From Laetmonice hystrix (Eukaryota): a stretch of DNA of 64,000 nt. The stretch spans positions 16,866,001-16,930,000 of the forward strand of contig OZ249436.1 in the NCBI GenBank assembly GCA_965235115.1. The letters are read 5' to 3'. This document shows, piece by piece, positions 620 through 64,000 of the stretch. Below the pieces are notes generated by a model that did not search any database, had not been told where the DNA came from, and was given only the letters and a program-made list of their open reading frames with translations. Numbering within the stretch: position 1 is the first letter of the stretch; each line of letters begins with the position of its first letter. The translations under genes were made by a program, and so were the position numbers.

Positions 620-3600
620 GTTTACTCCAAGTCAAACCGAGTTCCGGTCCAGGTCGGTTTCCGGTTCATCGTGCCCAATGACCTCCGGGACAGGGAATGG
701 CGGGAAAAATACGTGGAGGACAAGAGTGTCCTTGATGGCACCACCCCACCACCGACCACCACCACTACCACCACCACCACCACCACATCACCTACAACTA
801 CCACCACAACCACAACTACACCACCACCCACAACAACCACCACCACCACCACAACACCACCTATCACAACGACTTGGGAGCCCACCACCACCACCACCAC
901 CACCACCACCACCACCACAGCGCCCCCTACCGAGAAGTTGGAGCACAATATGAAGGAGGTTGTAGAGAATGAGGTGGAGAAGGTGGCCGACCATACGTAC
1001 ATGTGGCGGTTCGTCGACTGGTCACCCTGTAGTGTCACCTGTGGCGAGGGTAAGTCTGCACTCACTCATTTAATACCATTGACCAGCAAATACTTGAGAG
1101 TGGCACTTTGGTGAGATCTGAATTTGCAGTGTTCATTTAGTATTTGAGCGCTGTGGTTGTGTTCCAGGCGAACAGAGGGTGATGATGTCGTGTGTCCTCT
1201 CGGCGAACGGAGCCCCAGTGGCCGACACTGCGTGTAACCGGATCCCGCGTCCCGACACCCACGTCCAGCCCTGCGTAAAACCGGCCTGCCAGGCCCTCCA
1301 ACCCTACAGGTCAGTGTGAACCCGGCCTGCCAGACCCTCCAACCGTACAGGTCAGTGTGACCCCGGCCTGCCAGGCCCTCCAACCCTACAGGTCAGTGTG
1401 AGTCCGGCCTGCCGGGCCCTCCAACCCTACAAGTCAGTGTGAGCCCGGCCTGCCAGACCCTCCAACCCTACAGGTCAGTGTGAGCCCAGCCTGCCAGGCC
1501 CTCCAACCCTACAGATCAGTGTGAGCCCGGCCTGCCAGGCCCTCCAACCCTACAGGTCAGTGTGAGCCCGGCCTCGCCTGCCAGACCCTCCAACCCTACA
1601 GGTCAGTGTGAGCCCGGCCTGCCAGGCCCTCCAACCCTACAGGTCAGTGTGAGCCCGGTCTGCCAGGCCCTCCAATCCTACAGGTCAGTGTGATCCCGAC
1701 CTGCCAGGCCCTCCAGGTCAGTGTGAGCCCAACTTCGCCTGCCAGGCCCTCCAACCCTACAGGTCAGTGTGAGCCCGACTTCGCCGGCCAGGCCCTCCAA
1801 CCCTACAGGTCAGTGTAAGCCCGACTTCGCCTGCCAGGCCCTTCAACCCTACAGGTCAGTGTGAGCCCGACCTGCCAGGCCCTCCAACCCTACAGGTCAG
1901 TGTGAGCCCGGCCTGCCAGGCCCTCCAACCCTACAGGTCAGTGTGAGCCCGGCCTCGCCTGCCAGACCCTCCAACCCTACAGGTCAGTGTGAGCCCTGCC
2001 TGCCAGGCCCTCCAACCCTACAGATCAGTGTGAGCCCGGCCTGCCAGGCCCTCCAACCCTACAGGTCAGTGTGAGCCCGGCCTGCCAGGCCCTCCAACCC
2101 TACAGGTCAGTGTGAGCCCGGCATGCCAGGCCCTCCAGGTCACTGTGAGCCCGGTCTGCCAGGCCCTCCAACCAGCCCGGCCTACCAGGCCCTCCAGATC
2201 ATTGTGAGCCCGGCCTGCCAGGCCCTACACATCAGCCTTTAGGGATTTATATGAGAAAAAAATCCAACTTTTATTACTAGAATACCCTCTGAACGCTAAT
2301 CGTCAAGACCCCTTCATATTTAAACGTATTGTATACACCCAGACAAATTTAATATAAATTCAAGCTAATAGTATTCGCAATAGTGGACACGCCAAAAGGA
2401 GTTTATACCGCCTTTATTGTATGTCCCTACCGACTGAGGAGGGGCAGGTAGGCTGTGCCCACCGAACCCAACCCACATACAAAACGATCACTGTACAAAG
2501 GTTCACTGGTATATCAACACTCTCCCCGCTCGCACTCACGGAGACGTACCCGCTGAGCCCAACAGGGGGCGCCGTTGTAGACACAACCCTACTTGTACAC
2601 TGAGAGAGATAAACGGTGCTATAACTATGCTGGACGACTTCCGTACAGTACTCTCGGGTCGGGGGTGGGGGGGGGGGGGGTGCTGGCTGCTGTCTGCCAT
2701 CTCCTCGCCTCCCCCTCCCCTCCTTCTCCCTGAGGCGGCAGATCATATCAACGACAGGACATACCTCCTTATACTGGCCGTACATAACACTGGCCCGACC
2801 ATGGCGAGGTCGGCTTACAAAATGTCAGTTAAAATGTTTATAACAGTCGGAAACAACACTTCTAATGTAAAAAGTTACCAAAGGCCGCTACGTCGGCACG
2901 GATTCAAAAGACATGACAAAATATGAATTTCTCCTATATAAAACTGACCCGCTCTGTGAATAACCTGACCTATGTATGACCTAATAACCTGACCTTGAAT
3001 GTATGACCTGTCACAGACATCTGACCCTTGGTGCCTACGCACCTGGTCAACAGTCCAAAGTGGAAAACGGAGTATTACCAAAAAGGTTGTTAGCCCCCCC
3101 CCCCTCCTCCGGTAAACTTACCTGGAAAAACGGTTACATTTACATGGATCACACTGAAGAAAATGCTGTGGTCCTCCTGTACACAGACCCCCCCCCCCCC
3201 CACCTCCAGTACCCGACATCCATCCTACAGCAGACGGCCAGACTGCCAAGTCTGTTGTATTTGACCACCACCAGACGTCGCCAGAGACTAATCTCCGGGT
3301 TACCACACTATCAACCTCTGCCTCCTACAGGGACATGGAGCATCGAAATATTAAAACCTTTCATTTTTTTTATTTCTTTTGGAGAAATAATGGTTAAAAC
3401 TTAAGGATCCTTGACCGTGATGTCTGGTTTATTGTGAAAGTTTACAAGGGGAATAATCAGGACAATACACCACCTCTACCGCCACCTGTTGGACCCAGAA
3501 TAAATCACTGTACTGCCTTCACAGTCGGACCTCCTTACTCAAGTTTTCTTGTTCCCCTCAAACTACTGTATCTTCTTTGAGTGAACCTCACTAACGGAAC

Positions 3601-6600
3601 AGAACAAGTAAATGTAAAGTTAAATATCATAATATCGTTTGCTTTTCACTACAACATAGGGAAAAATCGATAACATAGATTACAACATTTCGGCTGGCTT
3701 ATCAAGTTATTGGTGGTCATCTCATGAAGTTTGTCTCGATTAGTGCCAGAGAGATTCTGATAAAACTCAGACTACGCAAAATTACATCTGCAACTCATAC
3801 AACGTGTATGAAGTAAAAATTGAGCGAAAAACGGTAAGATGATAATAGCCTTCAGTTCATGGAATCTGGCTACAATATAAAGGGCAAAATTTGAAAACAT
3901 AGAGGCTGGCGAACGAACTTCATCTCCAAATGGACCAGGGAACCAGGCCAGTTATCCTACTGGGCCAGGGAACCAGGCCGGAATCTCCCTTTGGACCAGG
4001 GAACCAGGCCGGGATATTCCACTGGACCGGGGAATTAGGCCGGAATCTCCCGTTGGACCAGGGAACCAGGCCGGGATATCCAATTGTATCAGGGAACCCG
4101 GCCAGGATATCCCACTGGACCAGGGAACCAGGCCGGGATATCCAACTGGATCAGGGAACCAGGCCAGGATATCCCACTGGACCAGGGAACCAGGCCGGGA
4201 TATCTCACTGGACCGGGGAACTAGGCCGGAATCTCCCTTTGGACCAAAGAACCAGGCTGGGATATCCCACTGGACCAGAGAGCCAGGCCAGGATATCCCA
4301 CTGGACCAGGGAACCAGGCCGGGATATCCCACTGGACCAGAGAACCAGGCTGGGAGCTCCCTTTGGACCAGGCAGCCATGCTTCCATGGCTCCTATAGCA
4401 ATATGTTAACTGATTTGTTCTTCAAAGTCAGTCATTTCTATTTGAATAATTTTAATTAGTCACTGAGCTATATCCAACTGATACCATTACCAGAAACATT
4501 CACCCAGTATACCAGATATATCCACCCAGTGTACCAGACACATCCACCCAGTATAGGCACTATACTAGATACATTCACCCAGTATACCAGATACATCCAC
4601 TAAGTACACCAGAAACATCCACCCAGTATACTGGTGTTTCCACCCAGTACACCAGACACATCCACCCAGCATGCCAGACACATCCACCCAGTATACCCCA
4701 CATCCACCCAGTATACCAGACACATCCACCCAGTGTATCGGATACATCCACCAAGTATACCAGAAACATTCACTCAGTATACCAGACACATCCACCCAGT
4801 ATACCAGACACATCTACCCAGTATACCAGATACATCCCCCAGTATACCAGACACATCCACCCAGTATACAAGATCCCTCCAGCAATGACACACCTAGCGT
4901 GTAATGGTGTAAAGGGGACGATGATCAACATCAGTACAATATATCGCTATGTAACAAAATCTAACGCGGTAACATCAGCTCACAGCTCTACAACCCGTCT
5001 TGGACACGTGACAGCTCATGTTTACAACCCCCATCTCCATGGTAACCACCACTTTCTATGGTTACCAACCAAACGTTAACATCAAACCATGCTGACGTTC
5101 TCCCAGTCACCCTGTGCTGCTGTGTGCCTTCCAAAAATCAAGCAATGTCATGGGAACCATGGTAACCAGGTCACCTTGTTTACATGACCACGCCACGATT
5201 AAATCCATCCTGACGTCAAATCCCACGACATCATCTTTTCCTCTCCCTGCTTCCATCAACGTTTTCACTAACTAATCCACCCATACTCCCAATAGTTCCA
5301 TGGAGATATGGTTTTTTTAATATCCCTGATATCGTTTTCAAAGCCAAGTTTAAAAATGTAACTATGGGTTTCTCGTAACCTGTCGCCATGGTAACATAGC
5401 CTCAGGTCACCTTGACCACAAGGCTACGTTACTATTATATATATCCTTCCTCCAAGCTCACTTCCTACCAGATGAGTCCATTAACACCAGACTATTGTGT
5501 CACCCTGGTATCGGCATTTACCAGGAAATTATGTTTAAAATAAATAATGGACCAATCTGAGAGAACAGCCAACCTGTGACGAACGGATCTTGTCCCTCTC
5601 TAGCAGACTCTGAGAACGCAGTACTGTTCACTGCACGTCAGACACCATAGTTCTTGAGCTGAGTTATAGAATTTCAACCTCTGACCTGGAAATGACCTTC
5701 AAACATTGGACTGTGTCCTTGGAAGGATGTCACCACATCCCTCCGCCAATCACACTCGTCGGTCACAAACACTCATTGACCAGGAATGAACAAATTAGGG
5801 CCTCCTCCACAGAGAATGTATGCGACCTTCCTTCTAACCCTTGAGCTTTAACCCATGAACCCTATTATTTTAATTCCCCACGTCCAGTGACGTCATGCTG
5901 ATTACCTGTTTAGATTCAACTCTGACTTCTGACCCTTTTCAAAAGATCAGAGGTCGCGTTTTATCCAACCATTTTTCAATTCTAGTACCACGTTCCTGAA
6001 TATTGAAACAAGTGTATTCTAATTGTTGTTTCCTTCAATGTGGAGATACCAACTGTGGTGTTCTGAGAACGACTGAGCTGCCAGCAGACCAACCCAGAGT
6101 TGGACTGTTACTCAGGGCAGTCTGAGGTAATGTTCGGGTTGTGTTAAGTAGAACCAGGTCCCTTCAGCTGCACGGCTTTCTACCCGAAAGATTATTCTAT
6201 GGGAAATCATTGTCTATTGTGTGAAAACTGAACTCTGGGAGGAGGCACTTCAAGGTCCGATGACATCACGTGTGGCATCAGTGCTGACCTCTGGCGTGGG
6301 ACTGAGGAACCGGTCGCAGTCAGTGAGATTCTCCTTCAAAAACCATCCTAGTGGCGCCACCTTTCACCTGGGAAGGAACCACATGTACTTGTGCACCATG
6401 TACGAGCCGTCGCTGTCTGTGTTGTTGGCGAAGGACGTTGAGAGAAGTTCCCAGCCATGATTGTGGAGGTGGTGAACGACGGCCATCTTGGGACACGTAC
6501 TGCTGCTGATGTTAATTGTACGATACTGGCCGTCACTCGCCTGTAAATCCTTTATTGTTTTCTCTGGCAGTGGAAGTGTCAATAAAGCAGCCTTAGCACC

Positions 6601-9046
6601 AGACAAGACCAAGCCACCATTTTTAAGTTCCGTGTGAATTCCACGTGGGGGATCGGAGTAGAACCTATAGAAGTAGGCCGTCTCCTCGAAGTCAAGGATT
6701 TCGAGGTAATAACCGGTATGTTTGGACTCCTGGTTTTTGAGGGCGCGGACGGCAGCAATCATGGCCTGGATCTGGTAGAAGTCAGCCTCAGCCTCCAATA
6801 ACTCGTGCTCTTTGAACCCCTGGGGGGTACAGAGGCGCCCTGACCTCAGAAAGTTGAGCACATGGCGGAACATTTCACCGTCACGGTCAATGAAGTAGTT
6901 TCCCTGGGTGTCAAAAGACGTTGGTACAAACTGCCCATTGAACATGGCACTGAGCATCGAGTCCTGATACTTGCAGAGTGTTGACCGCGTTGTGTTGTAA
7001 ATCACCCCGCCAACATTGAGTGTCACCACCTCGTCCGCCATCCTCCTTCTGCCTCCTCCCAACTCACAAGATCAACTCTGAAAACAAAACACAGAGTGTT
7101 TTAGTTAGACAAAATAACATGTTGACAGTGTCTGAGTTAGACAAAATAACTTATAGACATGGCATCTGAGTCTGACAAAATAACACATTGACAGTGTCTG
7201 AGTTAGAGAAAATAACATGTTGACAGTGTCTGAGTTAGACAAAATACCTTATAGACATGGCGTCTGAGTCTGACAAAATAACACATTGACAGTGTCTGAG
7301 TTAGAGAAAATAACATGTTGACAGTGTCTGAGTTAGACAAAATACCTTATAGACATGGCGTCTGAGTCTGACAAAATAACACATTGACAGTGTCTGAGTT
7401 AGAGAAAATAACATGTTGACAGTGTCTGAGTTAGACAAAATACCTTATAGACATGGCGTCTGAGTCTGACAAAATAACACATTGACAGTGTCTGAGTTAG
7501 AGAAAATAACATGTTGACAGTGTCTGAGTTAGACAAAATACCTTATAGACATGGCGTCTGAGTCTGACAAAATAACACATTGACAGTATCTGAGTTAGAG
7601 AAAATAACACATTGACAGTATCTGAGTTAGAGAAAATAACACATTGACAGTGTCTGAGTTAGACAAAATAACCTATAAACAAGGCATCTGAGTCTGATGG
7701 GTTTTATGTGCCACATTTAGTTTAGCTTTGTCCACACAGGTGGGTTGCTGATGACTGGGGATCATGTTCAGCGACATGTGGCCGCCTCGGTACAGAATCC
7801 CGCCGTGTACATTGTATGCACCAGTACTATGGGCGAGACTACCCTGTGGACCCGGTATACTGTGACATCCGCCAGATCCCACTCTACCGTCGTCCATGTC
7901 AGCGGGAACCATGCCCTGCAACCTGGCGTACTGAGGCCTGGACTCGGGTGAGTGAACATTAATTCTAATCTAAATGTCCTTTAAATCTGTCGGCTGGTGG
8001 CCACTCACCTGGAGATCTGTGTGTGATTCTATGACATTATTTATTGGACAGTGTACAATAAGTGTGTTTCAGGCACAAAAACTCATGATTCTACGGTATT
8101 ATTGATTGGTCAGTGTACAGTAATGTCTGATTCTATGACATTTTTTATTGAACAGTGTACAGTAACGTGTGGTTCAGGCACCCAAACTCGACGAGTTTAC
8201 TGTGATAAGCCATCAGATGGAAACACCTACAACTGCACTGAGAGAAAACCTTACAGTCGCCGCATCTGTAAACATCGATACTGCCGGGGTAAGCAGAGCC
8301 CTGCCTTGTTTCTGATACTGCCAGGGTAAGCGGAGCCCTGCCCTGTTTCTGATACTGCCGGGGAAAGCGGAGCCCTGCCCTGTTCCTGATACTGCCAGGG
8401 TAAGCGGATCCCTGCCCTGTTTCTGATACTGCCAGGGAAAGCGGAGCCCTGCCTTGTTTCTGATACTGCCGGGGTACGCGGAGCCCTGCCCTGTTTCTGT
8501 TTAAGGAGACAGTTAATTTTTTCCAGGCATATGCATACATTTCAAAACATTTGAGGAAACTTTATGAATAATTTCTTCAATCTTTGTTTCATTTCAGTAA
8601 GGAAAACAACAGAAGCAAAAACAACCGAGCCAACAACAACTACAACCACAGAACCTCCCACAACAGCATCCACAACAACAATTTCACCTCCAACGACTAC
8701 TACAACTACTACCACAACTACAACTACACAGCCCACCACAACTACACAGCTAACAACAACTACTCAGCCAACAACCACTACACAGGCAACATCAACTACT
8801 CCGCCAACAACCACTACACAGTCAACATCAACTAGAAGTCTGACAACACCAACTCTGTTCAGCAGCACCACGATGCCTGCACCAGACGGCAGTGAATCAA
8901 ACCCGGCCCCACCTATAGTTATCGGGGCCAGAACCCGTGCCTGCAACACAGACAAATCCTTCTTCTGCAAAATGGCTAGTCCCAAAAACTGCCAGCTGCC
9001 CCTTTACCGTAAATTCTGCTGTGCCTCTTGTGTTCCTTTATTATAA
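620..9046 (+). CDS. 3' part of an ADAMTS/ADAMTS-like extracellular protein (spacer end, Thr-rich linker, TSP1 repeats, second Thr-rich linker, C-terminal PLAC domain); 5' exons lie outside the window
   Basis: Exons 620-1049, 1168-1309, 7740-7947, 8156-8288, 8598-9046 have AG/GT boundaries and matching phases. TSP1 motifs WSPCSVTCGEG, WGSCSATCG, WTRCTVTCGSG; PLAC-like CNTDKSFFCK...CQLPLYRKFCCASC; AATAAA near 10100. Confidence 0.85.
1281..2230 (+). repeat. 41-bp minisatellite (~23 copies) whose unit spans the ADAMTS exon end and 5' splice site
   Basis: Unit CCGGCCTGCCAGGCCCTCCAACCCTACAG|GTCAGTGTGAGC; the first copy contains the true donor at 1309/1310. Confidence 0.95.
3930..4372 (+). repeat. 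~31-bp minisatellite
   Basis: Unit GGACCAGGGAACCAGGCCGGGATATCCCACT and variants. Confidence 0.9.
4488..4870 (+). repeat. ~22-bp minisatellite
   Basis: Unit CCAGACACATCCACCCAGTATA. Confidence 0.9.
6364..7041 (-). CDS. BTB/POZ (T1-type) domain KCTD protein, KCTD6/21-like, single coding exon, nested in an ADAMTS intron
   Basis: MADEVVTLNVGGVIYNTTRSTL..DSMLSAMF..GNYFIDRDGEMFRHVLNFLR..EADFYQI is a canonical KCTD BTB domain; 225 aa intact ORF; acceptor TTTTCAG just upstream (exon edge about 7077). Confidence 0.92.
   Translation of the reverse strand: MADEVVTLNVGGVIYNTTRSTLCKYQDSMLSAMFNGQFVPTSFDTQGNYFIDRDGEMFRHVLNFLRSGRLCTPQGFKEHELLEAEADFYQIQAMIAAVRALKNQESKHTGYYLEILDFEETAYFYRFYSDPPRGIHTELKNGGLVLSGAKAALLTLPLPEKTIKDLQASDGQYRTINISSSTCPKMAVVHHLHNHGWELLSTSFANNTDSDGSYMVHKYMWFLPR
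7102..7696. repeat. Higher-order minisatellite: 98-bp period made of three related 32/34/32-bp monomers
   Basis: GAGTTAGAGAAAATAACATGTTGACAGTGTCT + GAGTTAGACAAAATACCTTATAGACATGGCGTCT + GAGTCTGACAAAATAACACATTGACAGTGTCT; identical positions recur at 7201 and 7299. Confidence 0.92.
8277..8499 (+). repeat. 37-bp tandem repeat (6 copies) spanning an ADAMTS exon end and donor
   Basis: Unit GATACTGCCGGG|GTAAGCAGAGCCCTGCCTTGTTTCT starting at 8277, 8314, 8351, 8388, 8425, 8462. Confidence 0.95.
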
Positions 9047-9830: not shown

Positions 9831-9877
9831 TACACCATGCCATCCTGTCCTAAGCCTGATCTGAAATGACCTTGCCA

Positions 9878-10784: not shown

Positions 10785-10789
10785 GTGGG

Positions 10790-13736: not shown

Positions 13737-22570
<8,834 letters not shown>

Positions 22571-24287: not shown

Positions 24288-24452
24288 GGGGCCGTCTATA
24301 AAATTAAATTAAGTAACGCTCTGGGGGGTGGGGGTTTATGTCCAAGCGTTACTCTCCATTATAAAGTTCATTATAAAACTCCAGTGAAAAGGAGGGGGAG
24401 TGGGGTGTCAGATTTTGGACAGAATAGTATTACGTAATTCATGGACGGCCCC
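24288..24452. mobile_element. PIF/Harbinger-like MITE
   Basis: GGGGCCGTCTATAAA...TTCATGGACGGCCCC flanked by TAA on both sides. Confidence 0.75.
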
Positions 24453-25284
24453 TAACTCGTGGATGTGACCAGCTGCACCGACCTACCCATCATCATCGGC
24501 TATGTTCCAAGGCTACCACTAGGGGGCTCGGATGTCACACGAAGCGAGAAATCAAAATGGTGGACGTGCAATTCGCCGTGCCCGCCCAGATTGCCTGGTC
24601 ACACCTTACTGAAACTCTGCAATAACCTGAGTGACGAAAAGTCAGTCACTACAGGCCTAACCCTTCCCATTCCTACTAACTCATGCCAAGGATTTCCTCA
24701 ATATTTCTACCCTGAAAATCGTTGACAACTTTGCTATGAATTACAGTCAGAAAATGACTAAATGATAACGTATAACTGAATTGTTGCAAACTTTTGTGCA
24801 ATGACAAATGGAAATGCAATTGTACAGTGAACTTTTCACTACACTATGAAATTAAGTTAATAAACGCACTACCTTCAGGCCATAACATTAAACAGTGTCC
24901 TTCAACTGATGGTGCTGATTGAATGGTGATCTTCTCATCAAGATAGGATTGTTGACTGTATTCAGATCTATTTCCATGTACGTGTATACATCCGTCTCTG
25001 TAACCTTCAAAATCCACGACAAATGAGAACAATCCAGGGAGTATATAATTACACCACTCTGGGTGTGCCCAAGGCTCTGACAGGTTGGTAATGGTAAACC
25101 AGTAAACTCCACACGGGGCACAACACAACCGAGAATATGTGAATATTTGAGAAGGTAGCAACACTACAAAATATAAGCTCTCCACTCCCTGTACAATCAG
25201 ACAGTCTATCAAAGAGTGACAGTCAAACATAGACACAGAACGTAAACTTTCCTGAAAACTTACTATTCTACTTCATATTAACAG

Positions 25285-27207: not shown

Positions 27208-27212
27208 ACAGT

Positions 27213-30200
27213 TTAGTTTGTCTTGGTCTTGTCTGCCTTCTTCTCGTCTTTGCCCATGAGCAGCCGCTTGACGATGACGGCAGTGGAGTTGGTGAAGCGC
27301 TGAAGGATGCCGTGCTTGCGGAGTCCAGGAAGTAGCATGACGAACACCACTGAAATATGAAAGAGCGGTCAGTTTGACAGACAGGGGAGAAAACTTTTTT
27401 TCACAATCACAACCTCTAGACTCCCTGCACATAGGATATAACTGATATGTGTTGTGAACAATTAAACGATTAAAATGAAAAGCAGCAATTGTGGAAAGGA
27501 CATGACATGATCACAATAAGTGATCACAGGTGGGGCAGTGACAGAGTATAAGGTATCATACAAGTATGGTAATGACTGAGTAAACTATCATACAAGTGGG
27601 GTAGTGACTGAGTAAATTATCATACAAATGGGGTAGTGACCAAGTAAATTATCATACAAGTGGGGTACTGACCCAGTATAGGGTCTCATGCAGGTGGGGT
27701 ACTGACCGAGTAAATTATCATACAAGTGGGGTTGTGACCGAGTATAGGGTATCATCCAGGTGGGGTAGTGATCAAGTATACGGTATCATACAGGTGGGGT
27801 AATGACTGAGTAAACTATCATACAAGTGGGGTAGTGCCTGAGTAAATTATCATACAGGTGGGGTAGTGACCGAGTAAACTATCATACAAGTGGGGTAGTG
27901 CCTGAGTAAATTATCATACAGGTGGGGTACTGACCGAGTAAACTATCATACAAGTGGGGTAGTGCCTGAGTAAATTATCATACACGTGGGGTACTGACCA
28001 AGTAAACTATCATACAAGTGGGGTAGTGCCTGAGTAAATTATCATACAGGTGGGTTAATGACCGAGTAAACTATCATACAAGTGGGGTAGCGCCTAAGTA
28101 AATTATCATACAGGTGGGGTACTGACCGAGAAGATAGGTGAGGAGAAGATTGTCAATGAGACTGCCGACCCAGGCGAGCACTGCGAAGGCCCCCATCATC
28201 ACCAGCAAATACTGAAACACAACGTTACATTTACAAAACCTAAACCACAACCATATTCCTAAAAACTTATATTCACAGTCTAAAAGTTTGCTTACAACCA
28301 CAACAATGATTACATGCCAAAGACTGCAAGATTTGTTACATTTATACAAAAGTCAATTGTAATGTCTCATGACTACAGGTTTCCGATTTTCCTGGTCTTA
28401 ACAAGTAAGCGTCACCCACTGCCTTAGGTTTATCCCTCTTCAGCTTCACCATCGAGGTCTTCAGGTTGATGGTGTGGGTCTTGGCGTTCATGAGACGGAT
28501 ACAGATGGATTCATACTGACGCTCCTGAATCACCGTCCTGAAAGATACAAACAATATGACAGATGGATTCATACTGATGCTCCTCTCTGCTGAAACATAC
28601 ACAGAAACATGATAGATGGATTCATACTGAGTAACCGTCTGACGCTTCTCACCGTTTTCGAAATACTTTTGATGTATGATAAGAAGGTATTTTGACCAGT
28701 TTTGCTACTCAACCGCATGCAGTACCAATTTGAGCATTATGTGATGTAACAGTCAATCAGTTCTGTTCACTTCTGTTCACACACCACTGGTTTGCATTTT
28801 TTGCTGGACATACTGTATAGTACACTTTATTACTTCTATTACCAAAGAAATGTAACTTTCATCAGAAATCCTGTAACTAAGTGCTCTGGGCCTGGTTTTT
28901 TTTGCTTACTTTTCCACCGTGAGAAAGGGTGAGCTGAGCTGGGCAAGGGTGAGCATATGCTCACAGTTTTCACATTTTTTGGGGTTTCCCCCCCCCCCCA
29001 TGAGGCATGCTCGTGAAAAAAAGGATGCTCATGCTCACCCTTGCTGAGCTCAGCTTGCCCTAAGTAAACCAAACCTGGTCCACCAGAATGACAGTAACAT
29101 CCCTAAGGCCAAAAAAAATCCCGGTTTCTGGTCCGTGCGCGCCTCACTTTAGGTGCTGCGCATCAGTGCTTTTTTTCTTGCCCTCACCTTGGATGACTGG
29201 ATGACTGTGAATTGTGCTGCCACCTAGTGGTAAGGCTTGAAACTAACCATTGTTGTAAGGGATATTTCATTAACACTGTAACGGAAGTGTGTTGTAGTAG
29301 TATTCAAAGTGATGACAGCAAAGGTCATGGCCCTTGTTTATGAGTTCATTTTACATGATAATTCTTATGAGGTTTACCATTTTAGCCAGCTGTCACCAAA
29401 AAAAAAACAAAAAACGTGTCACCACACCACTTTTGAAATGTTCTTCGGACCAGAATCCGGGAATTTTTTTTTTGGCCAAACACACTGCCAACTCCAGACC
29501 CCCCCCCCCCTCCTCCACTTGGTTCCCCTTTCCAGTACTGCTCACGGGGGTTTGCTCCGTAAATCAGGACGCTCAGAATCATTCGCCGTGATATGACCCT
29601 GGCTGTTGCAAGGCGTAAAACCCCAAATACCCACCCACCCACCCTGTCCGGGCCCAGCTGTCGCAAGGATGAGGTAATGACCTGGGTGGCCGCCAGGAGG
29701 CTTCTGGAGCTGACCCGCTGACCCCAGAGGTCACTACCTGGGGTCAGCACGCTCCAGGTACAGCTTGTCAATTATGTTTTTCAGTTGATCAACATTACAG
29801 ATACAAGTAAATGTGAGAGTCTAAAACAAATAACACACCACTAGCATTCTAACTGCACACCAAGTTTCTAACAGACAGCCTGTGGCAACGTGCCTGTGCA
29901 TAAAAGAAAAGGTGGACTCAGCCAAAACCCTGGATGACCTACTACGTTTATAACAGCCCACTGACGACACAGCAAACATCCCTGGGAATACCCTGTAATA
30001 GTGTTGTCTGATATTATCAAATCCCCATGGGAAACCCCTGTAACTACCCTACCATGGCCCAGTCCATGCCCCCCCCCCCCTCCTGAGCTTTGCCTAAGAA
30101 GAACCCGGCAACCCTGCCACCGGACTCTAACTTAATCTTCCTATCTGGTATGTCAGAGGTCACCTAGAGGCTGCCCAAGTACCGGCGGTCACCGGGACGC

Positions 30201-36200: not shown

Positions 36201-37026
36201 AATGCTGGAGGCCAGTGGGATCCCTGTCCACAAGGACAATCTGTGCCACCTACTTTCAACTCAGCTGACAACAAATTTTGACACGTTTTTTTCATGATGC
36301 CAAAATTACAAGTTCATGCGCTCAACTTTGCATAATCACAGTTAGCAATGCGAATTAGGGTAGGCGGCGAATTAGCATCCTGTGACGTTACACATTATTT
36401 TGTCCTTTATGTAAAAAAACTTGTGGCATTTCTCAGGGCAAGCAGAAATTTTGGCGGGCAAGCTGATTTGTTCTGTAGGTTTCCCCACTGAGCAACCTAA
36501 TTTTTTCCTTCGTTCGAACACTGTTAGGCCTATATCTCAATCAATTTAAGTTGTTGCAACACGTCAACACACACTGAACACAGCCACGGCACAGCCACAG
36601 GGCGACAGGCAACAGCCGCCCCCAAACAGGTCTTCAAAACTTGACTTCAGCAACTGATACTGGTGACAGCAGATGAAATGATACCGGTGCCAGTGTCTGA
36701 CTGCGGCTGGTGGCAGTCGACCGCCCCCGCCGTCTGAGGCTCGGGTCCGGGTGCGTGCCCCTAGGCCCTACCATCGCATCGCCATCGGGCGACCTCGCCA
36801 ATCTTCGGGGTCACGAGCACTCCACTCTCCCAAAACGAGCTGTCAAAACCTTAGATGAAAATATCTGCACGACTTGATGTCGAGTCGGTAAATTTTTATA
36901 CCGTACTAATCAGGCACATGGCATGAACCGTCGCAGCGCTTTAATATGATCTCAAGACGTGGGGACTGATTAAAATAAAGGAAATACCTGCTCCTGGGGC
37001 ACCTGGGCATCTCGCACTTCCGCCAT
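27213..37026 (-). CDS. ARL6IP1: ADP-ribosylation factor-like protein 6-interacting protein 1 (reticulon-like ER-shaping protein)
   Basis: Exons 37026-36988, 33223-33087, 32669-32550, 28537-28420, 28211-28127, 27349-27213 are in phase: MAEVRD..LEGYRELILPLNKVLEWEKNHYPAIL..IWYLEPSVL..CLIDFVVP..EWTVIQERQYESIC..LKRDKPKAY..LAWVGSLIDNLLLTYL..LLPGLRKHGIL..KTKTN*, matching the ARL6IP1 pattern. Confidence 0.93.
27525..28130 (-). repeat. 32-bp minisatellite (~18 copies) starting at the ARL6IP1 exon 5 donor
   Basis: Minus-strand unit CTCG|GTCAGTACCCCACCTGTATGATAATTTA; the first copy is the true donor at 28127/28126. Confidence 0.92.
28890..29078. mobile_element. Degenerate palindromic MITE
   Basis: GGGTGAGCTGAGCTGGGCAAGGGTGAGCAT is the inverse of ATGCTCACCCTTGCTGAGCTCAGCTTGCCC. 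Confidence 0.55.
33253..33380. mobile_element. PIF/Harbinger-like MITE
   Basis: GGGGTGATTCAACAATTT...AAATGTTGAACCACCCC with TTA on both sides. Confidence 0.7.
34044..34930 (-). mobile_element. Decayed non-LTR retrotransposon (LINE) fragment in ARL6IP1 intron 1
   Basis: Frameshifted pieces NPNGKLL (endonuclease-end-like), KSDRSGGPSGV, IFKEGARKQCDNYRGISIMN, EQAGAQKGTGC (RT domains 0-2). Confidence 0.8.
35339..35850. mobile_element. GGGGCCCGTTT-family MITE interrupted by a second MITE (35447-35792)
   Basis: Outer CAGGGGGCCCGTTTTACTAAAG...CTTTAGTAAAACTGACCCCTG; inner CATAGGCATAGGAA...TTCCTACGCCAAAG flanked by a CTTCT direct repeat. Confidence 0.7.
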
Positions 37027-43898: not shown

Positions 43899-46800
43899 TC
43901 AGCGGGATGAGCTTGAACTTGACCGACTATATCTTCGTCTACGTGGCGACCTCGACCGTGACCTTCTCCTTGGTGGTGGTGACCTTCGTCTTGGTGGTGG
44001 TCTCCTGATTGAGAAAAATTTTTATATACTGAATTGTCGAGGTTACGAGTCTGGAGATCTGTTCTATACAGAATTGACGAGGTTACGAGTCTGGACAGCT
44101 GTTCTATACAGAATTGACGAGGTTACGAGTCTGGAGATCTGTTCTATACAGAAATGATGAGGTTACAAAGTCTGGAGATCTGTTCTATACAAAATTGACG
44201 AGGTTACAAGTCTGGGGATCTGTTCTATACAGAATTGACGATGTTACAAGTCTGGAGACAGAACTGAAGAGGTTAAAGGGAGTCGTAAAATTCATTTTTT
44301 TCGATTTATGTCAGTCTTAGAAACATACGATTCGCATACCTTGGACTCCCAGTAACATCATGTGAGACTGTTATGGCCCAGCGACCAGTATTTAGTAAGG
44401 AAAATATGCAAAATCTCTCGCAAATACGTAGCTCAGAATTAGCGAGCGGCCCACAGGATATCTGAGTTGGCCGCGGTCGGGCGATGATCACGCGTGATCA
44501 CGTGACTTCCGGGTGTACATGCGGTATTTAGGTCAACGCTAGACTAAAGGGAGATTCCCTTCCACACCCGGAAGTCACGTGATCACGCGTGATCATCGCC
44601 CGACCGCGGCCAACTCAAATATCCTGTGGGCCACTCGCTAATTCTGAGCTACGTATTTGCGAGAGATTTGGCATATTTTCCTTACTAAATACTGGTCGCT
44701 GGGCCATAACAGTCTCACATGATGTTACTGGGAGTCCAAGGTATGCGAATCATATGTTTCTAAGACTGCCATAAATCGAAAAAATGAATTTTACGGCTCC
44801 CTTTAAGAGTATGGAGATCTGTTCTATACAGAATTGATGAGGTTAAGAGTATGGAGATCTGTTACAACACTTACTTGACTAACACTCATTGCAATTCATA
44901 TTATTGACAGACTGTAAGGACTTACATCCATCACATTTTTTAACGGGAAGATAAATTTTGGTAAATTCATAAAGCCAGAGCAAGAGACCATCCTCGTTTT
45001 ATTAATCTGTTTAAAATACTGGAAGATTTAGGGGGTCTAATAAATACATTGTGGACCTTTTAATGCAACAGTATGGACAGATAGTGGATTTACATATTTT
45101 TATAATAGAACTTTAGTTATCTTCTCACCCCCTGTTGTCTCTCTGAAATCTTGGAGGTGATGCCCTCCATCTCGGTGGTGGCCCTCTACGGGGTTGGGGA
45201 CTCCTGCGTGGGGGCCGGGGCACAATGCGCGGGGCCAACACTGCTGCTGCTGTAATTTCTTGGCCGTCAATTTGACCTGTACATAATTTAATATAAATCA
45301 ATGTATTTATTTAAAAACTATTTTTAAACTGAATGATTACTTAACACACTCAAGTTCGGCCAAGTCTTGTACTTGTAAATTCAGGTTATATCTATCTGTG
45401 AATCAAATAAGTAACTTCCTCGAGAGCACAATCATCAGCAATTTGTATCTTGGAACCTACCTCCATCCATGTGCCTTATTGCCTTGTCTGCATCATCTGG
45501 GTTCTCATATTCTATGTAGGCGAAGCCGCGTGAAAACTCAGGATGAGTTCTGTCCGGGGGCATGTCGATTGATTTGATAGCCCCATAATTAGCAAAGATC
45601 TCGTGCACGTGTTCCTTAACAACATTGCGGGTGAGGCGTCCAACATGAACCTTGCATGGACGTGGTGTGGGGCTGCGCTTCTTACGGCGTGGTGACCTAG
45701 ACCTGGTAAATAAGATACAGAATAAGATTAGTGGCTTGATATTAAAAAGAACCTAATTTCAACAAGATATACGTACCCTTCAACAGTGCAGTTCAAATGG
45801 ATTACTGTTCTGTCCCCATTATTGGAAGATCCTATTTTCTATTACAGTGTACAGGCTTGTCTACGACTGTGATTGGGGGGGGGGGGGCATGTTTATATGT
45901 GAAATGTGGACTAAATGATATGATAGGTAGCCTATTCTTCCTATAGGGAATGCTGTCCATCTTCATCAATTTGCAGAATTTCTTCTTTTTTTTTCTTTCT
46001 AAGAGGCCTAGTATAAAAGCATCTTTGCTATAATTTTGCATGCTTTAAGCCTATGCCATGAAACCTGTTAAATTACAGTGCTTGAAAATAACACTAGCTA
46101 CAAATTACAGGCCTGCCTAAATTTAGGGCTGGGGGGGGGGCTCAAGTATGAAAACTTGAATTTGAAAATATCTTAATTAATATTAAGGGCTAATCATCCC
46201 TTAAGACCGGTTATCATGAACACTTACTACTAATTCAATCATGATCAGACTAGCGTCAACAGGCAAGAAAAAGGAAAATTTGATATGGAATTTGGTAACA
46301 GGTGTTAAGTCATCTTGGTTGGATGGAACCTCATCGGACAGCACACTTTATAAGTTTCAGTTGCAGGTTTGATAAAACAGACCAAAGTTCATACCGTACA
46401 GTTTTAGTTCAGCTGGTAGATTGTTTTATAGACAGTTTTGGGAAAAGGAAAATTATGGCCGCAGTGTTTTAACATGTTTGTCCCTGAATTTTCTCTCCTC
46501 TTTTTCCGATTTGCTGTCCCATGGGTCACCTGGCCCATTTCATCCAGTTTCATAGTCTGATAATACAGGCGTTTAATTCAGTGTGCAAGCCATGAAAAGC
46601 ACAGTGAGCACACCATTGTCATGTTTTGGAGCATGAAAAATTTCACAGTCCCTGCAGACATTCCATCCTTCTGCACATGAACCAATGATGCACAATGTTT
46701 GTTTGTTTTTAATCTGAATTAAGAAAGGTTACACTATTCACTAGAGACATTGATTGCATTCCTAGGCATGTTGTGCAATGCTTAACTATGACGGCAAGGA

Positions 46801-49800: not shown

Positions 49801-49808
49801 ACTTACAT
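43899..49808 (-). CDS. RNPS1: RNA-binding protein with serine-rich domain 1 (EJC/ASAP component)
   Basis: Exons 49808-49807 (AT), 48163-48071, 47265-47146, 45702-45461, 45276-45129, 44004-43899 are in phase: MARSRSKSRE.., Ser-rich block, RSPTPRPCKVHVGRLTRNVVKEHVHEIF (RRM), MDGGQIDGQEITAAAVL, RS/P tail ending SRSSSSSSR*. Confidence 0.95.
44030..44865. repeat. 40-bp minisatellite in the last RNPS1 intron, interrupted by a MITE
   Basis: Unit GAGGTTACGAGTCTGGAGATCTGTTCTATACAGAATTGAC at 44030-44276, resuming at 44803-44865. Confidence 0.9.
44277..44802. mobile_element. 526-bp fold-back MITE with TTAA TSD and AG...CT termini (Kolobok-like)
   Basis: Arms 44277-44516 and 44564-44802 are near-perfect reverse complements; TTAA at 44273-44276 and 44803-44806. 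Confidence 0.92.
48515..48790 (-). mobile_element. SINE with an (ACTC)n tail, resembling mollusc SINEs
   Basis: GTGAGTGAGTGAGTGAGT-AGTTGGTGTTTAACGCCCAGTCAGCAGTATTTCAGCTAT tail and an internal GGGATCTTTAACGTGC segment. Confidence 0.6.
49178..49336. mobile_element. MITE with CAGGCCTCGAATT termini and 6-bp TSD
   Basis: AGAGAG|CAGGCCTCGAATTA...TAATTCGAGGCCTG|AGAGAG. Confidence 0.8.
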
Positions 49809-50062
49809 TTAGCCGGTTTCCCAAACTGATGCCACAGACGCTTCAACAACCAAGTCGGAATTGAAACGGTTCCTCTGATTGGTCAATAATATTCCATATA
49901 GCCAATGGTGCAGTGGCTTACAGAAGCGGTGGGCAGGGCCGGCCGTCGGCGGCGACCGACAGGGGACCGGGAGGGAACCGGGGACCGGACTCTCAAAAAG
50001 CGGGGTGGGAAATATTAAGAGAGTCATTGTTTAAGCTTTGTTTCACTCTTGCCTTGGACGAG
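49809..50062. promoter_or_regulatory. Compact bidirectional promoter RNPS1/EEF2KMT
   Basis: Divergent starts ~255 bp apart; ATTGG at about 49878, CCAAT at about 49902; GC-rich 49925-50010. Confidence 0.7.
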
Positions 50063-53000
50063 ATGGAGATCCAAAGTAGTTTCTTTGCAATGGTGCCTGT
50101 GAAAAATATTGATTTTGAGGTAGGCCGAAATGTTGGTTTGTAATGAAGCCACAAAATTTGGTCGCGTGTATCGAGCGATAATACGGGGTTTTGGAGCTTC
50201 AGTATTTGTAAACAACCGTGCACTGTGCACATGGCCACCTGGTCCGAGATACAGGACGGGGTCAGGGTATCTCGGACTAATGGGTCTAATGGCCACCAAG
50301 CCATTAAACAAAGCTTTGACTGTGGCTCTGAGCTTTGACTGTGGCTCCGAGCTTTGCCCATGGCTCTGAGCCAATTAAGTAGGCCTACTACTAAGTAGGC
50401 CCTGCCCGGTGTAACCCACCCGGCCCCACCTACAAACATACTCACTGCCTACTACTACCTGGTATACATGTAAACACAAACACGCTGTTAAACCAGTCCA
50501 TGTTATTACAGGTCATATGTAACAATTATATATTCATTATTGTAATTTGTAAATTGTATGAAGAGGTTGACCGTTTTTGGCCACCACCCCTAAAAAAAAG
50601 AACTTCTTATGTCCTGGACCTGTGTCTGCACAGAAACAAAGTGTAGGTAATATTGTGCTTTAAATGGGGACACTATAGGTTCCTGATGCATGATACTTGC
50701 ACTGTCTGACTGTCATATTTAAATATCATGTCGTATTTTTCCCTAGAGTGTGTATGGAAACTGGGAGGAGATAACAACTATAAAACAAGAACAGCTTCTT
50801 CAGCAAACTGTTCTACATCCAAGGGCAAAGGACAGGCCTCCATCCCTTAACTACAGGCAAAGATTTCTCAAATTTATCATTAACAGGGTAAGCTAGAATG
50901 AGGAAAGTTGGACAAGCAGTAAATATGTCTATTCTTCAAAGAAAGCATGAAAACTTTTCGTTTTAGAAAAAAAAGAATTAAGGGTTAAATCCATGGGCCA
51001 AGCTCCATTGAAACCAGAACTTATAGTTTGTTACGTTACCCTCTGTGGCCCATGGGCCTGAGCCTGCTCTCCTTTTGTGTAGTTTCTAGTTGGACCCCAG
51101 TTTTCCCAAAGCCTGGATATTGTGCTCCTAATGTAGCATATACATGTATGTACATATATAGTGATGTTGCACAATTGCAGTTAGAACAAGCTGGTGTGGA
51201 GGTCAGAGATGCTGTCTATGATGAGTTTTCAAAGCTGATGATACTCTTAGATGAGACAGAAAGGAAATTCTGTTATAAAACCTACACTTTGGTGAGATAT
51301 ATGGCATTTCTAGGATTAAGAGATCTAGGGTATTTAGCATCTCTAGGATTAAGAGATCTGGAGTATTTAGCATCTCTAGGATTAAGAGATCTAGCTAGGG
51401 ATTGTGCAGATGTTAACAACTTTTCATAAAATTACACATCTTATATAAAAGAATGATCACTTTTAAGGTCTGTATCTCTCTGCTTTCATAATTTTATTTA
51501 GTTCAGTTTAGTTTTATTTAGTTAGTGTATATAGCTGGGGAAAAAAAGTAATGCTCAATAAACTGCCACTGGGTGGTTCTATAGGTGCGGCAAAGACCCA
51601 CTAATGAGGGTTACAGAGACAGCTAGGGCCAGATAGGGTGCAGCTTAGGAGAATTACTGGCTAAATATACACTGCCTTTTATTTAATGTTTGATTATATA
51701 GTTTGCCCTATAGTTTATATAGTTTGCCCTGTGTGTCAATTTCTTTTGTTTTGTTTTGTAGCCTGGTGGTCAACTGGTCACCCTGCAAGAGTCCAAGCAA
51801 CTCATTTCTGAAGGAACCACAGGTCTAAGGACATGGCAGGTCAGTTTGTCTTAAACCAAAAGTAAATTGTCAAATTCAACCTGATTTGAAAGATACTGAG
51901 ATTAGCACGAGAACCTTCTTTCTTTTTCTATTATTTGTATAGATATTTATTTTCTAATTTTTTTCATACTGAATACTAGCAGAGTTAGTACATTGTATAT
52001 ATATTGAAGGTCTGGTGTTGTGGATTGGTTGTTGCCAACAGGCTGCACAGTACATGGCTGAATTTATCCTGGAGAGGCCAGACCTTTTCACAGGAAGCAG
52101 TGTTCTGGAGCTGGGGAGTGGACTTGGCCTGACCGGACTGGTAGCACAGTGTTGTCATCCACAGAGTTACACCTTCTCTGACTGTCACAGCAAAGTGTTT
52201 GAGCTGCTTCGTGAAAACATCGAAAACAACCTGTCACAACCGGCAGGTACCACTACAGCGCCATCTTCGGGAGGAAACAAGAAACATGGCCAAGTTCACC
52301 GAACAGTTTTACCTGACTTACAACAGGTGGCAGCCCATGTCAGGAAACCACGGCAAGCAGTCCCGGTCACGCTAGTGGCGCCCACTGTAGGAGCAAACCA
52401 AACGCACGACCACATCCACCGAGGAGTATCACCTGACTCCCGCCAGGTGGCAGTCGCTGCCCCTGGCTCTGGCGGGCAAACAGATGGTACTGCCCCCAGG
52501 TGGGATAGGTGGAAGTTACAAGAAACCGACAGTGGTGATGATGTGGCCGTGTGGCAGTACAGAGCTGATCCTGTCGTCAGGTTGGCCGAGTTAGACTGGG
52601 ATAGGGTGACGGCAGAGACAGCCGGAGAGCTATTTGGTGAAGTCAGTATAGTGCTGGCAGCTGATGTTGTCTATGATACAAGTATCATCCCCTCACTTGT
52701 CAAACTATTACACATTCTACTCACACTCCCGCAACGACCAACAGCGTACATCGCCTCAACAGTAAGGAACGAGGCCACGAATGAGGCATTCATTGCATCA
52801 CTCGGTAAGTGACACTGGAACCGTGAATTGGTAACTCAACACTGAAGTATTCAAAGTTAACTTCGATGTTGTCAGCTCTCAGCTGGGATAATGATAGAGA
52901 GATGTATATGTGGATTAATGTGGCTGTACTGTCGTTTTACAATATATAATTATAATTAGCCACTTATATTTAGATAGACACAAGCCAAATAAATAACTGG

Positions 53001-59727: not shown

Positions 59728-59884
59728 TAAAGCCAGGAATCCATGTGTCCGTAGTGCGTATTGCGTAATCAAAGCAATGAAAACATGCATTACGGACTCA
59801 TGGAATCACTTGTTTTCATTGAATTTGATGAATACCCATTACGCACTACGCCCACACTACGTATACATGGATTCCTGGCTTTAG
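59728..59884. mobile_element. Small palindromic MITE
   Basis: TAAAGCCAGGAATCCATGTGTCCGTAGTG...CACTACGTATACATGGATTCCTGGCTTTA. Confidence 0.75.
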
Positions 59885-61681: not shown

Positions 61682-63360
61682 CTAATCCTCATCTTCCCAG
61701 GGTGCAACAACATTTCCCGGTTTCCCCCCATTTTCCTCATCTTCCCAGGGTGCAACAACATTTCCTGGTTTACCCCCAATTTCCTCATCTTCCCAGGGTG
61801 CAACAACATTTCCTGGTTTACCCCCAATTTCCTCATCTTCCCAGGGTGCAACAACATTTCCTGGTTTACCCCCATTTTCCTCATCTTCCCAGGGAGCGAC
61901 TACGTTAGATACCTTGTGGTTCGCCCCACCCTCCCCCTCCCCGTCCTCCTCCTCGTCGTCGTCGTCCTCCTCCTCGTCCTCCTCCTCCCATGGTGCCACC
62001 ACGTTATTGCCAGTGGTGCTGGGCACGGCGATGTTAAGGCTAAGGTTTTGGTCGTGCTTGGTGACCCGTTGGGCGAGCGCCTGGTGTTGGTGGGCGGGTA
62101 CCTCCAGCGACCTCCTCCCGGGGCTCCCGTGACGCATCAGGTCCTCCAGCTTGTTGTGGAGCGTCTTCATCGACAACCTACAATATCACGTGGTGCAGTC
62201 TCAGCTAATCACCTGCTAGACGGGTTCATGTTTATAATATACCATCATTCACAGTTATGTGTGTGCAAGATGTCGACTGAAAGATTATGGAAGGAGAGAA
62301 GACTTAGCCTTAAGATTATTCATGTCCAATTGTTTATGGCCAAAGCCAAAGCGAAGAGCAATTCATTGCCAACACTTTCCAATGATTTAATGCAATAAAA
62401 AAAAAATTAAAAATAGAGCCAGTTTGAGGGTCCGATGATATGTATGAAGATCACGTGATACGTTAGATGATATCTCACTCACCCCTTCTTGTTTTCACCC
62501 TTCACATCGCCAGTACTCCTGCAACGTGACAGTTCAATGGATCAGTTCCCACGGGTTGAGGTTGTAGGTTGATTAACAGGGTTAATTAACATCCCAGCCC
62601 TGACCTACTACAGGCTTAATGAGGGTTGACCTGTTAGAGCCTAGAGCAGTCCCGTCTCACCTCCATTAATAACACCTCCTATACCCAAATCATGATATGT
62701 TTAAACCTTCTATCGTCATCAATATAGGAGTATAAGACTGTCGGACAGGAGCACACCAAGGATTAACCTCGGGTTTAGGTCAAAGTGGAGGTTAACCCTT
62801 GCTGTCCTCACCCACCCACAGCCACACTCACCCAAAGGGCGACGACTTGTTCGACTTGCCGTTGATATCTAGCTCATGGAGGTTTCCGGTGCTGAAGGAA
62901 TGCTGGGATAGCCCGGCTTCCGTCGTCATCTTGGTTGCGACGTTCATGTCGTCCGAGGCACTACCGCGTCGTTTGGGCTTCGGGCTCGGGTTGGGAGACT
63001 TCTTCTTGGTTCCTCCAAAATTAAAAAATCTTCAAACGGAAAAACAAAGTCGTAATGTTTAAATATATCATACTGGAATGGAAGGTCTTTACCTACGGTT
63101 ATTCTGATAAATTAAAGCTATATTTAGTATCTGTAACCTTTCTTAAATCTTCGACTACAGAGAGTCTGACGTGATTTGACTGACAGTGAAGAGGAGTTTA
63201 AAAAAAGAAAGAAAGAGAGGCACAGACTTACTTTTTCTTCGGGCATGGGTTGACAGCATTAGCGAGGAGATACTTAAAGTGGTCGGACCGAATGAAGCGG
63301 TTATAACTGTCTTTCTTCATCAGCGTGTAAATATGGTCCTGGGCCTTGTCCATGGTAAAC
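61682..63360 (-). CDS. 3' part of an R7-family regulator of G-protein signalling (RGS9/11-like); 5' exons lie outside the window
   Basis: Exons 63360-63232 (RFTMDKAQDHIYTLMKKDSYNRFIRSDHFKYLLANAVNP = end of the RGS domain, RGS9-like MKKDSY), 63029-62832, 62518-62483, 62177-61682; all junctions are phase 2 GT-AG. Confidence 0.88.
61685..61905 (-). repeat. Coding 48-bp repeat encoding GNVVAPWEDEE(I/N)GGKP
   Basis: Five tandem copies plus a sixth NVVAPWE motif at about 61986-62006. Confidence 0.9.
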
Positions 63361-64000
63361 CTGGGCCAGAGACACACGTAATTATATCAGGGCCTTGTCC
63401 ATGGTAAACCTGGGCCAGAGACACACGTAATTATATCTGGGCCTTGTCCATGGTAAACCTGGGCCAGAGACACACGTAATTATATCTGGGCCTTGTCCAT
63501 GGTAAACCTGGGCCAGAGACACACGTAATTATATCAGGGCCTTGTCCATGGTAAACCTGGGCCAGAGACACACGTAATTATATCAGGGCCTTGTCCATGG
63601 TAAACCTGGGCCAGAGACACACGTAATTATATCAGGGCCTTGTCCATGGTAAACCTGGGCCAGAGACACACGTAATTATATCTGGGCCTTGTCCATGGTA
63701 AACCTGGGCCAGAGACACACGTAATTATATCAGGGCCTTGTTAATGGTAAACCTGGGCCAGAGACGCACGTAATTATATCAGGGCCTTGTCCATGGTAAA
63801 CCTGGGCCAGAGACACACGTAATTATATCAGGGCCTTGTCCATGGTAAACCTGGGCCAGAGACACACGTCATTATATCAGGGCCTTGTCCATGGTAAACC
63901 TGGGCCAGAGACACACGTCATTATATCAGGGCCTTGTTAATGGTAAACCTGGGCCAGAGACACACGTAATTATATCAGGGCCTTGTCCATGGTAAACCTG
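63341..64000 (-). repeat. 49-bp minisatellite (at least 13 copies, runs off the window) spanning an RGS exon acceptor
   Basis: Minus-strand unit TGATATAATTACGTGTGTCTCTGGCCCAG|GTTTACCATGGACAAGGCCC; the last copy holds the real acceptor (63361/63360). Confidence 0.95.

What the first reader, a model, noticed from the sequence alone, without database searches (positions are those of the whole stretch)
1281..64000. Recurrent splice-junction minisatellites: exon/intron boundaries amplified into arrays in four unrelated genes
Seen: at least seven tandem duplications have a unit that straddles a real splice site. Donors: 1281-2230 (41 bp, ~23x), 8277-8499 (37 bp, 6x), 27525-28130 (32 bp, ~18x). Acceptors: 8030-8167 (3x), 21886-22163 (40 bp, ~7x), 28499-28640 (3x), 63341-64000 (49 bp, 13x or more). 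The arrays always extend into the intron, and the exon-proximal copy is the one that preserves the frame. Further arrays start within about 5-45 bp of a junction (7102-7696, 44030, 51297). Inference: this looks non-random, implying either a junction-biased duplication process (splicing/R-loop or nucleosome-edge linked slippage) or a spliceosome that robustly picks the exon-proximal site among dozens of identical decoys. It could also be a copy-number-variable knob for nonproductive splicing.
Basis: partly seen in the sequence, partly recalled or inferred. Interest (0 to 1): 0.8.

Follow-up and report, generated by a model that had tools for sequence, protein, structure and literature searches.

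The report
Splice-junction "mirage" minisatellites, four genes
In four genes of a lophotrochozoan invertebrate, short stretches holding an exon edge and its splice signal are repeated 3 to 23 times into the intron; the two junctions checked are spliced at the exon-nearest copy, so these are likely harmless repeats of a kind already described in lancelets ("mirages") and in the human F7 gene.

Summary
Real, but a known kind. All seven arrays are confirmed and an eighth was found (ERCC6, 16975-17050). Hosts: an ADAMTS-like gene, ERCC6, ARL6IP1 and an RGS7-like gene. The ERCC6 tree places the animal in Lophotrochozoa, not with amphioxus. The structure matches amphioxus "mirages" and human F7/CBS junction minisatellites. 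This scan has noted it many times, in this genome and others.

One RNA-like run joins both ERCC6 decoy-bearing junctions at the exon-nearest site. Decoy GT/AG decay at the same rate as the rest of the unit (0.36 vs 0.33 alleles per column), and units are unrelated, so they look neutral and locally born. "Always into the intron, frame kept" follows from geometry and survival.

Enrichment is moderate. Seven of 17 intragenic arrays span a junction; 1.7 are expected per base (P 7e-4) and 3.2-3.7 when each array is kept in its own intron (P 0.015-0.04). Twelve of 17 lie within 30 bp (6-7 expected, P about 0.001; threshold chosen post hoc, window selected for the pattern). A bias toward intron ends stays open; nothing supports a regulatory knob.

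The parts
1281..2237 (+). ADAMTS-like gene: donor array, 41-bp unit (29 exon + 12 intron bases), true donor 1309|1310 plus 22 decoys, 18 keeping GT; every decoy meets a stop 3 codons in
8026..8190 (+). ADAMTS-like gene: acceptor triplication, true acceptor 8155|8156; decoys at -42 (in frame, weak) and -104
8277..8499 (+). ADAMTS-like gene: donor array, 37-bp x6, true donor 8288|8289, 3 of 5 decoys keep GT
16975..17050 (+). ERCC6 exon 5 donor array (not in the finding), 32-bp x about 2.5; true donor 16980|16981 used in run X4
21893..22163 (+). ERCC6 last-exon acceptor array, 40-bp x7; true acceptor 22153|22154 used in run X4; all 6 decoys keep AG and 3 score above the true site
27526..28130 (-). 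ARL6IP1 exon 5 donor array, 32-bp x19 (4 exon bases per unit, 64-bp higher-order repeat); true donor 28127|28126
28499..28660 (-). ARL6IP1 exon 4 acceptor, three degenerate copies; true acceptor 28538|28537
63341..64000 (-). RGS7-like gene: acceptor array, 49-bp x13 or more (20 exon + 29 intron bases), 97% matches; inferred true acceptor 63361|63360; all 12 decoys seen keep AG and meet a stop at codon 8
7095..7676 (-). Junction-abutting array, 32-bp x18, 17 bp upstream of the inferred 5'-UTR acceptor of the nested KCTD gene; carries 13 CTRAC branch-point-like motifs
16667..16813 (+). Junction-abutting array, 23-bp x6.4, 26 bp before the ERCC6 exon 5 acceptor; two extra units in runs X2 and X3
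21650..21709 (+). Junction-abutting array, 21-bp x3, 13 bp before the ERCC6 exon 15 acceptor
44025..44258 (-). Junction-abutting array, 40-bp x6, 20 bp upstream of the RNPS1 last-exon acceptor
51304..51394 (+). Junction-abutting array, 33-bp x3, 12 bp after an EEF2KMT-like donor
620..9046 (+). Host: 3' part of an ADAMTS-like TSP1/PLAC gene, 5 exons
13737..22570 (+). Host: ERCC6/CSB, 16 exons, 1843 aa; 12 of 15 introns seen joined as modelled
27210..37026 (-). Host: ARL6IP1, 6 exons
61682..63360 (-). Host: last three exons of an RGS6/7/9-like gene

Best explanation
These are eight unrelated minisatellites whose 32-55 bp unit includes an exon edge and its splice signal ('mirage' type); they likely arose as local tandem duplications and likely persist as neutral passengers, because the spliceosome uses the exon-nearest site (seen at two ERCC6 junctions, inferred for the other six). 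Steps: (1) a short local duplication occurs in a repeat-rich genome (inferred; each unit is a copy of its own locus, shown); (2) the array grows and shrinks by slippage or unequal exchange (inferred from sub-variant blocks and higher-order repeats; copy-number variation shown for one neighbouring array); (3) exon definition or oriented scanning picks the site that keeps the exon its old size, so all other copies become intron (shown at 2 junctions; mechanism taken from PMC1557585); (4) alleles where a decoy won would break the protein and be lost (inferred); (5) decoys then drift (shown by equal decay rates). The 2- to 4-fold excess at intron ends is partly explained by short introns and window selection; a remainder is unexplained.
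For: No two of 19 array units tested are similar at E<0.1, and none of them folds better than its shuffles (z from -1.15 to +0.91). Decoy GT/AG columns carry 0.36 variant alleles per column against 0.33 elsewhere, over 7 arrays; 54 of 67 decoys keep GT/AG. Run X4 skips 12 of 15 ERCC6 introns at GT..AG exactly as modelled, including 16980>17162 and 21810>22154, passing over decoys that score the same or higher. 67 of 68 decoys would frameshift or stop; ERCC6 decoys give 18-39 aa in place of 138. The genome is repeat-rich away from junctions too: 13 of 25 non-coding arrays are more than 30 bp from one. Same anatomy and silent decoys are described in PMC3087553, PMC3902484 and PMC1557585.
Against: An excess at intron ends survives the strictest null: 7 vs 3.2-3.7 spanning (P 0.015-0.04; 6 vs 3.1, P 0.05 without the RGS array) and 12 vs 6-7 within 30 bp (P about 0.001); P is 0.0006-0.09 over tolerances of 0-100 bp. 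Pure random landing is therefore not a full account. RNA evidence is one run whose type is not on record, as contigs that drop rare forms, and covers 2 of 8 arrays. In human 6-16 and CBS nearby pseudo-sites are used (PMC1557585), so leakage is possible. The decay test is small (14 core columns).
Confidence: 0.75

Rival explanations
1. Junction-biased origin: short duplications would arise preferentially within about 60 bp of exon edges (splicing-coupled R-loops or pausing, nucleosome edges, or repair stalling where conserved exon meets polymorphic intron). Compatible with neutrality afterwards.
For: 12 of 17 intragenic arrays within 30 bp of a junction vs 3.2 per base, 4.9 per gene, 6-7 per intron. 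In introns of 400 bp or more after collapsing, 4 of 8 vs 0.83 (P 0.004). Five of 10 non-spanning intragenic arrays abut a junction vs 1.0. Adding 10 weaker events gives 8 of 27 vs 3.7 and 13 of 27 vs 7.1 (units for the extras assumed).
Against: The window was chosen for this pattern and the 30-bp threshold after seeing the data. Breakpoints vary (4-35 exon bases) and are not at the junction. No shared motif or hairpin. Divergence between runs and window is only about 0.6% (26 in 4463), weak for a heterology model. Two earlier scan notes on this genome report near-chance levels (unchecked by me).
Confidence: 0.35
2. Retention bias: duplications would arise evenly, but copies next to an exon would be shielded from large deletions and insertions because one flank cannot be lost, and long intron interiors would be younger transposon-derived DNA.
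For: The residual excess is about 2-fold, the size a one-sided shield would give (inference). The two ARL6IP1 introns of about 4 kb hold no TRF array in their interior. An inverted-repeat element sits inside the 44025 array.
Against: Collapse in unit register would remove junction arrays as easily as others (inference). Several junction arrays look young (RGS 97% matches).
Confidence: 0.3
3. Regulatory knob: decoy sites would divert a copy-number-dependent share of transcripts to non-productive or truncated forms.
For: 54 of 67 decoys keep GT/AG; many score like the true site; a neighbouring array varies in copy number; nearby pseudo-sites are used in human 6-16 and CBS.
Against: No selective retention of GT/AG; only exon-nearest joints listed at two junctions; host genes share no function; junction arrays are unrelated in sequence.
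Confidence: 0.07
4. Assembly artefact.
Against: Copies differ in patterned ways (77-97% matches). Contigs of three DNA-like runs enter the 21893 array from both sides (ending 21922, starting 22058 or 22075) and depth doubles in that bin; single contigs cross the 16975 array. These runs are on record as one sample and may be the source, so they are not independent.
Confidence: 0.02

Closest known systems
Amphioxus 'mirage' minisatellites (Adh3, globins BflGb6/BflGb9, troponin C, PGBD5); passages of PMC3087553 and PMC3902484 read; Canestro 2002 not held, known only as cited there
   Same: Tandem units spanning donor or acceptor boundaries; unit sizes within the 10-160 bp reported; many but not all copies keep AG/GT; normal splicing; sub-variant blocks inside arrays.
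   Different: Host is a lophotrochozoan. Here several unrelated genes in 64 kb carry them (8 of 84 junctions), with five more arrays abutting junctions.
Human junction VNTRs: F7 intron 7 (37 bp), 6-16, CBS intron 13, lamin B2, PDGF intron 4; abstract, passages and Discussion of PMC1557585 read
   Same: First monomer spans the exon-intron boundary; identical pseudo-sites follow and the most upstream donor is used. F7 also has 4 exon bases per unit, like the ARL6IP1 array.
   Different: Those are scattered donor cases; here half are acceptor arrays, where the exon-nearest (most downstream) AG wins. Silence of decoys was tested by mutation in F7, not here.
Intron gain by tandem duplication of splice signals (Rogers model, as drawn in PMC3087553 Fig. 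7 legend)
   Same: The ERCC6 acceptor array holds acceptor + 9 bases + donor-like signal in frame, the raw material for that model.
   Different: The only joint listed skips it; no new intron is shown.

Membership tests
mirage minisatellite | Tandem unit spans a real exon-intron boundary of its own gene | tested here: met
   8 arrays; junctions from open gene models, homologs, Pfam, and RNA-like joints for ERCC6
mirage minisatellite | Minisatellite-sized unit (10-160 bp in PMC3087553) | tested here: met
   32-55 bp
mirage minisatellite | Many but not all copies keep GT/AG | tested here: met
   54 of 67 decoys in 7 arrays
mirage minisatellite | Regular splicing is not disturbed | tested here: inconclusive
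   Exon-nearest joint at 2 of 8 arrays in one run's contigs; six not covered; rare forms invisible
mirage minisatellite | Length polymorphism or instability | tested here: inconclusive
   Shown for the abutting 16667 array (+46 bp in X2, X3); no contig spans 21893; no change listed at 16975
F7-type donor VNTR | Pseudo-sites are functional when the upstream one is mutated | not testable with these tools
   Needs a minigene assay
mobile element or introner family | Shared sequence among loci | tested here: not met
   No cross-array similarity among 19 units at E<0.1
mobile element or introner family | Hairpin or terminal-repeat structure in the unit | tested here: not met
   Folding z-scores -1.15 to +0.91

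The most novel reading that the evidence does not exclude
In this lophotrochozoan lineage a mutational process tied to exon edges makes 20-55 bp duplications two to four times more often at intron ends (donor, branch point, acceptor) than elsewhere, so mirages are the visible tip of a general exon-edge duplication bias across invertebrates, and hundreds of natural decoy arrays form a ready genome-wide test of exon definition in an animal with short introns.
Probability: 0.3. Interest if true: 0.55.

Novelty: new member of a known kind. Interest (0 to 1): 0.25.

Why it matters
As a structure it is ordinary: named in lancelets and used as a splicing model in humans. What is left of value is (i) range: my two lophotrochozoan-directed searches returned no papers, in a library that lacks most subscription journals; (ii) a natural experiment on acceptor choice: at the ERCC6 last exon the most downstream AG is used although six intact acceptors lie upstream and the first would give a normal 96-nt intron, which favours exon definition over intron definition; (iii) an open question whether duplication is biased to exon edges, which PMC3087553 calls unclear. 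Practically, such arrays can mislead gene predictors.

Tried and rejected
Amphioxus as host: rejected; the ERCC6 tree puts the window with 12 lophotrochozoans (100/98), apart from three Branchiostoma (28 rows, 27 of 120 hits chosen by hand for taxon spread, one gene, position inside the clade unresolved). Genome-wide test: not possible, no genome held. Shared mobile unit or hairpin trigger: rejected. Polarity (copies diverging with distance from the exon): no consistent trend, rho -0.34 to +0.62 in five arrays. 9-nt in-frame mini-exon in the ERCC6 array as the main splice route: not seen; X4 joins exon 15 straight to 22154; rare use not excluded. High heterozygosity as driver: not supported at about 0.6%. 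Branch-point motifs in three of four acceptor-abutting arrays: a consequence of position, not independent evidence. Homolog search for the ADAMTS-like exon: none at E<=1e-8, weak evidence. No RNA holder was on record; X4 is called RNA-like only from its joints. Literature searches; none listed a genome-wide mirage survey by title or abstract start. PMC4039745: abstract and outline only, a different case (a C. elegans minisatellite near alternative exons). No supplements were opened; those of PMC3087553 and PMC3902484 hold mirage alignments that could refine the comparison.

Full report
Setting. The window is a gene-dense animal region. I built eight gene models by hand; seven translate without internal stops and the EEF2KMT-like model was fixed at its junctions but its 5' end is unresolved. 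They are: an ADAMTS-like TSP1/PLAC gene (+), a nested KCTD/BTB gene (-), ERCC6 (+), ARL6IP1 (-), UBE2S (+), RNPS1 (-), an EEF2KMT-like gene (+) and an RGS6/7/9-like gene (-). Domain support is from Pfam (8 of 11 exon translations hit), PDB and homolog searches. The names UBE2S, RNPS1, EEF2KMT and ARL6IP1 are my recall from the translations and domains; one search names only a RETREG/ARL6IP-like family. They give 84 junctions. A tree of the ERCC6 ATPase region places the animal among lophotrochozoans with support 100/98, outside the sampled gastropods and bivalves and apart from Branchiostoma. No genome is held, so all statistics are for this window.

Observation. All seven arrays exist and contain the stated splice signals. 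An eighth spans the ERCC6 exon 5 donor (16975-17050). Five more arrays end 12-26 bp from a junction (7095, 16667, 21650, 44025, 51304). The exon share of a unit ranges from 4 to about 35 bases, so breakpoints are near, not at, the junction. Of 68 decoy sites, 67 would shift the frame or meet a stop; one weak acceptor is in frame (score 2.2 against 4.1 for the weakest real acceptor).

Is it more than chance? TRF gave 32 merged arrays; I dropped 7 wholly coding ones, leaving 25, of which 17 are intragenic. After collapsing each to one unit, 7 span a junction. Expected: 1.4 for all 25 (P 4e-4), 1.7 in gene bodies (P 7e-4), 2.5 within the same gene (P 0.005). Because two earlier scan notes blamed short introns, I added a null that keeps each array in its own intron: 3.2-3.7 expected, P 0.015-0.04, depending on the assumed RGS intron length; without RGS 6 vs 3.1, P 0.05. 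Within 30 bp: 12 of 17 vs 6-7 (P about 0.001); across tolerances 0-100 bp P runs from 0.0006 to 0.09. The 28499 array was left out of the TRF counts; with it and nine other weak events the excess remains (8 of 27 vs 3.7). The window was selected for this pattern among at least 37 noted windows of this genome, so the spanning test alone would not survive correction under the strict nulls. My reading: a 2- to 4-fold excess at intron ends, suggestive and not proven.

If a unit holding a donor is duplicated and the first donor is used, all later copies are intron by definition; the same holds in mirror image for acceptors. Alleles where a decoy won would break the protein. So direction and frame are expected (inference).

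Splicing. Four runs were laid on 15000-25200. X4 has no type on record but skips 12 of the 15 ERCC6 introns at GT..AG exactly as modelled, where X1-X3 read through, so I treat it as RNA. It joins 16980>17162, past a decoy donor of equal score, and 21810>22154, past six intact acceptors of which three score higher than the true one. The first decoy would give a 96-nt intron, a normal size here, yet the exon-nearest site is used; this favours exon definition (inference). Contigs hide rare forms, and six of eight arrays were not covered.

Reality and variation. X1-X3 contigs enter the 21893 array from both sides and depth doubles there; none spans it. X2 and X3 carry two extra 23-bp units in the 16667 array relative to the window and X1. 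The four runs are on record as one sample and may be the source of the assembly.

Neutrality. In seven arrays, 54 of 67 decoys keep GT/AG, and the core dinucleotide carries 0.36 variant alleles per column against 0.33 elsewhere: no sign of purging or preservation, on a small sample. Nineteen units share no sequence and form no unusual hairpins, so each array is locally born.

Known cases. PMC3087553 (passages) describes 'mirages' in amphioxus globins and Adh3: donor and acceptor boundaries in tandem, AG/GT mostly kept, splicing normal, length unstable, origin unclear. PMC3902484 (passages) adds PGBD5 and troponin C. PMC1557585 (abstract, passages, Discussion) shows that in human F7 a 37-bp VNTR repeats the donor, the pseudo-sites are functional but silent, and the most upstream is chosen; it lists 6-16, CBS, lamin B2 and PDGF, with leakage in the first two. 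Canestro 2002 was not held. Searches for a mollusc or annelid case returned no papers. This scan has recorded the same pattern repeatedly in this genome and in annelid, urchin and shark windows (unchecked notes).

Verdict. A dense, clean example of a known repeat type in a lophotrochozoan, most likely neutral. The open point is whether duplication or retention is biased toward intron ends; that needs an unselected genome-wide test. Interest 0.25.

Noticed in passing
window 21907-21915 (and copies to 22080): Five of six decoy ERCC6 acceptors are followed 9 bases later by a donor-like GTATGT; four have the same 9-mer as the real UBE2S exon 3 donor. This is an in-frame mini-exon candidate; the listed X4 joint skips it.
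   Followed up: partly
window 44277-44802: A 526-bp element with 221-bp inverted arms (98%) flanked by TTAA sits inside the 40-bp array of the RNPS1 last intron; the array resumes after it. Looks like a MITE.
   Followed up: partly
window 6364-7077 (-): Single-coding-exon KCTD/BTB gene nested antisense in the 6.4-kb intron of the ADAMTS-like gene; its upstream exon was not located.
   Followed up: no
window 14240-14871 (+): ERCC6 exon 1 has an in-frame 48-bp (16-aa) x13 coding repeat near the N-terminus, upstream of where three homologs begin to match.
   Followed up: no
window 61686-61894 (-): The RGS-like gene ends in a 16-aa x4.4 coding repeat that abuts the stop codon.
   Followed up: no
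window 7095-7676, 25291-26060, 27526-28130: Higher-order repeats: 98 bp from three 32-bp units, 119/270 bp from 33-bp units, 64 bp from two 32-bp units.
   Followed up: no
window 37026-37359 and 49808-50089: Two head-to-head gene pairs with starts about 300 bp apart (ARL6IP1/UBE2S and RNPS1/EEF2KMT-like), likely bidirectional promoters.
   Followed up: no
window 21043 and 21148: Runs X1-X3 carry two 8-bp insertions of related sequence in ERCC6 intron 13, in and next to the 48-bp duplication.
   Followed up: no
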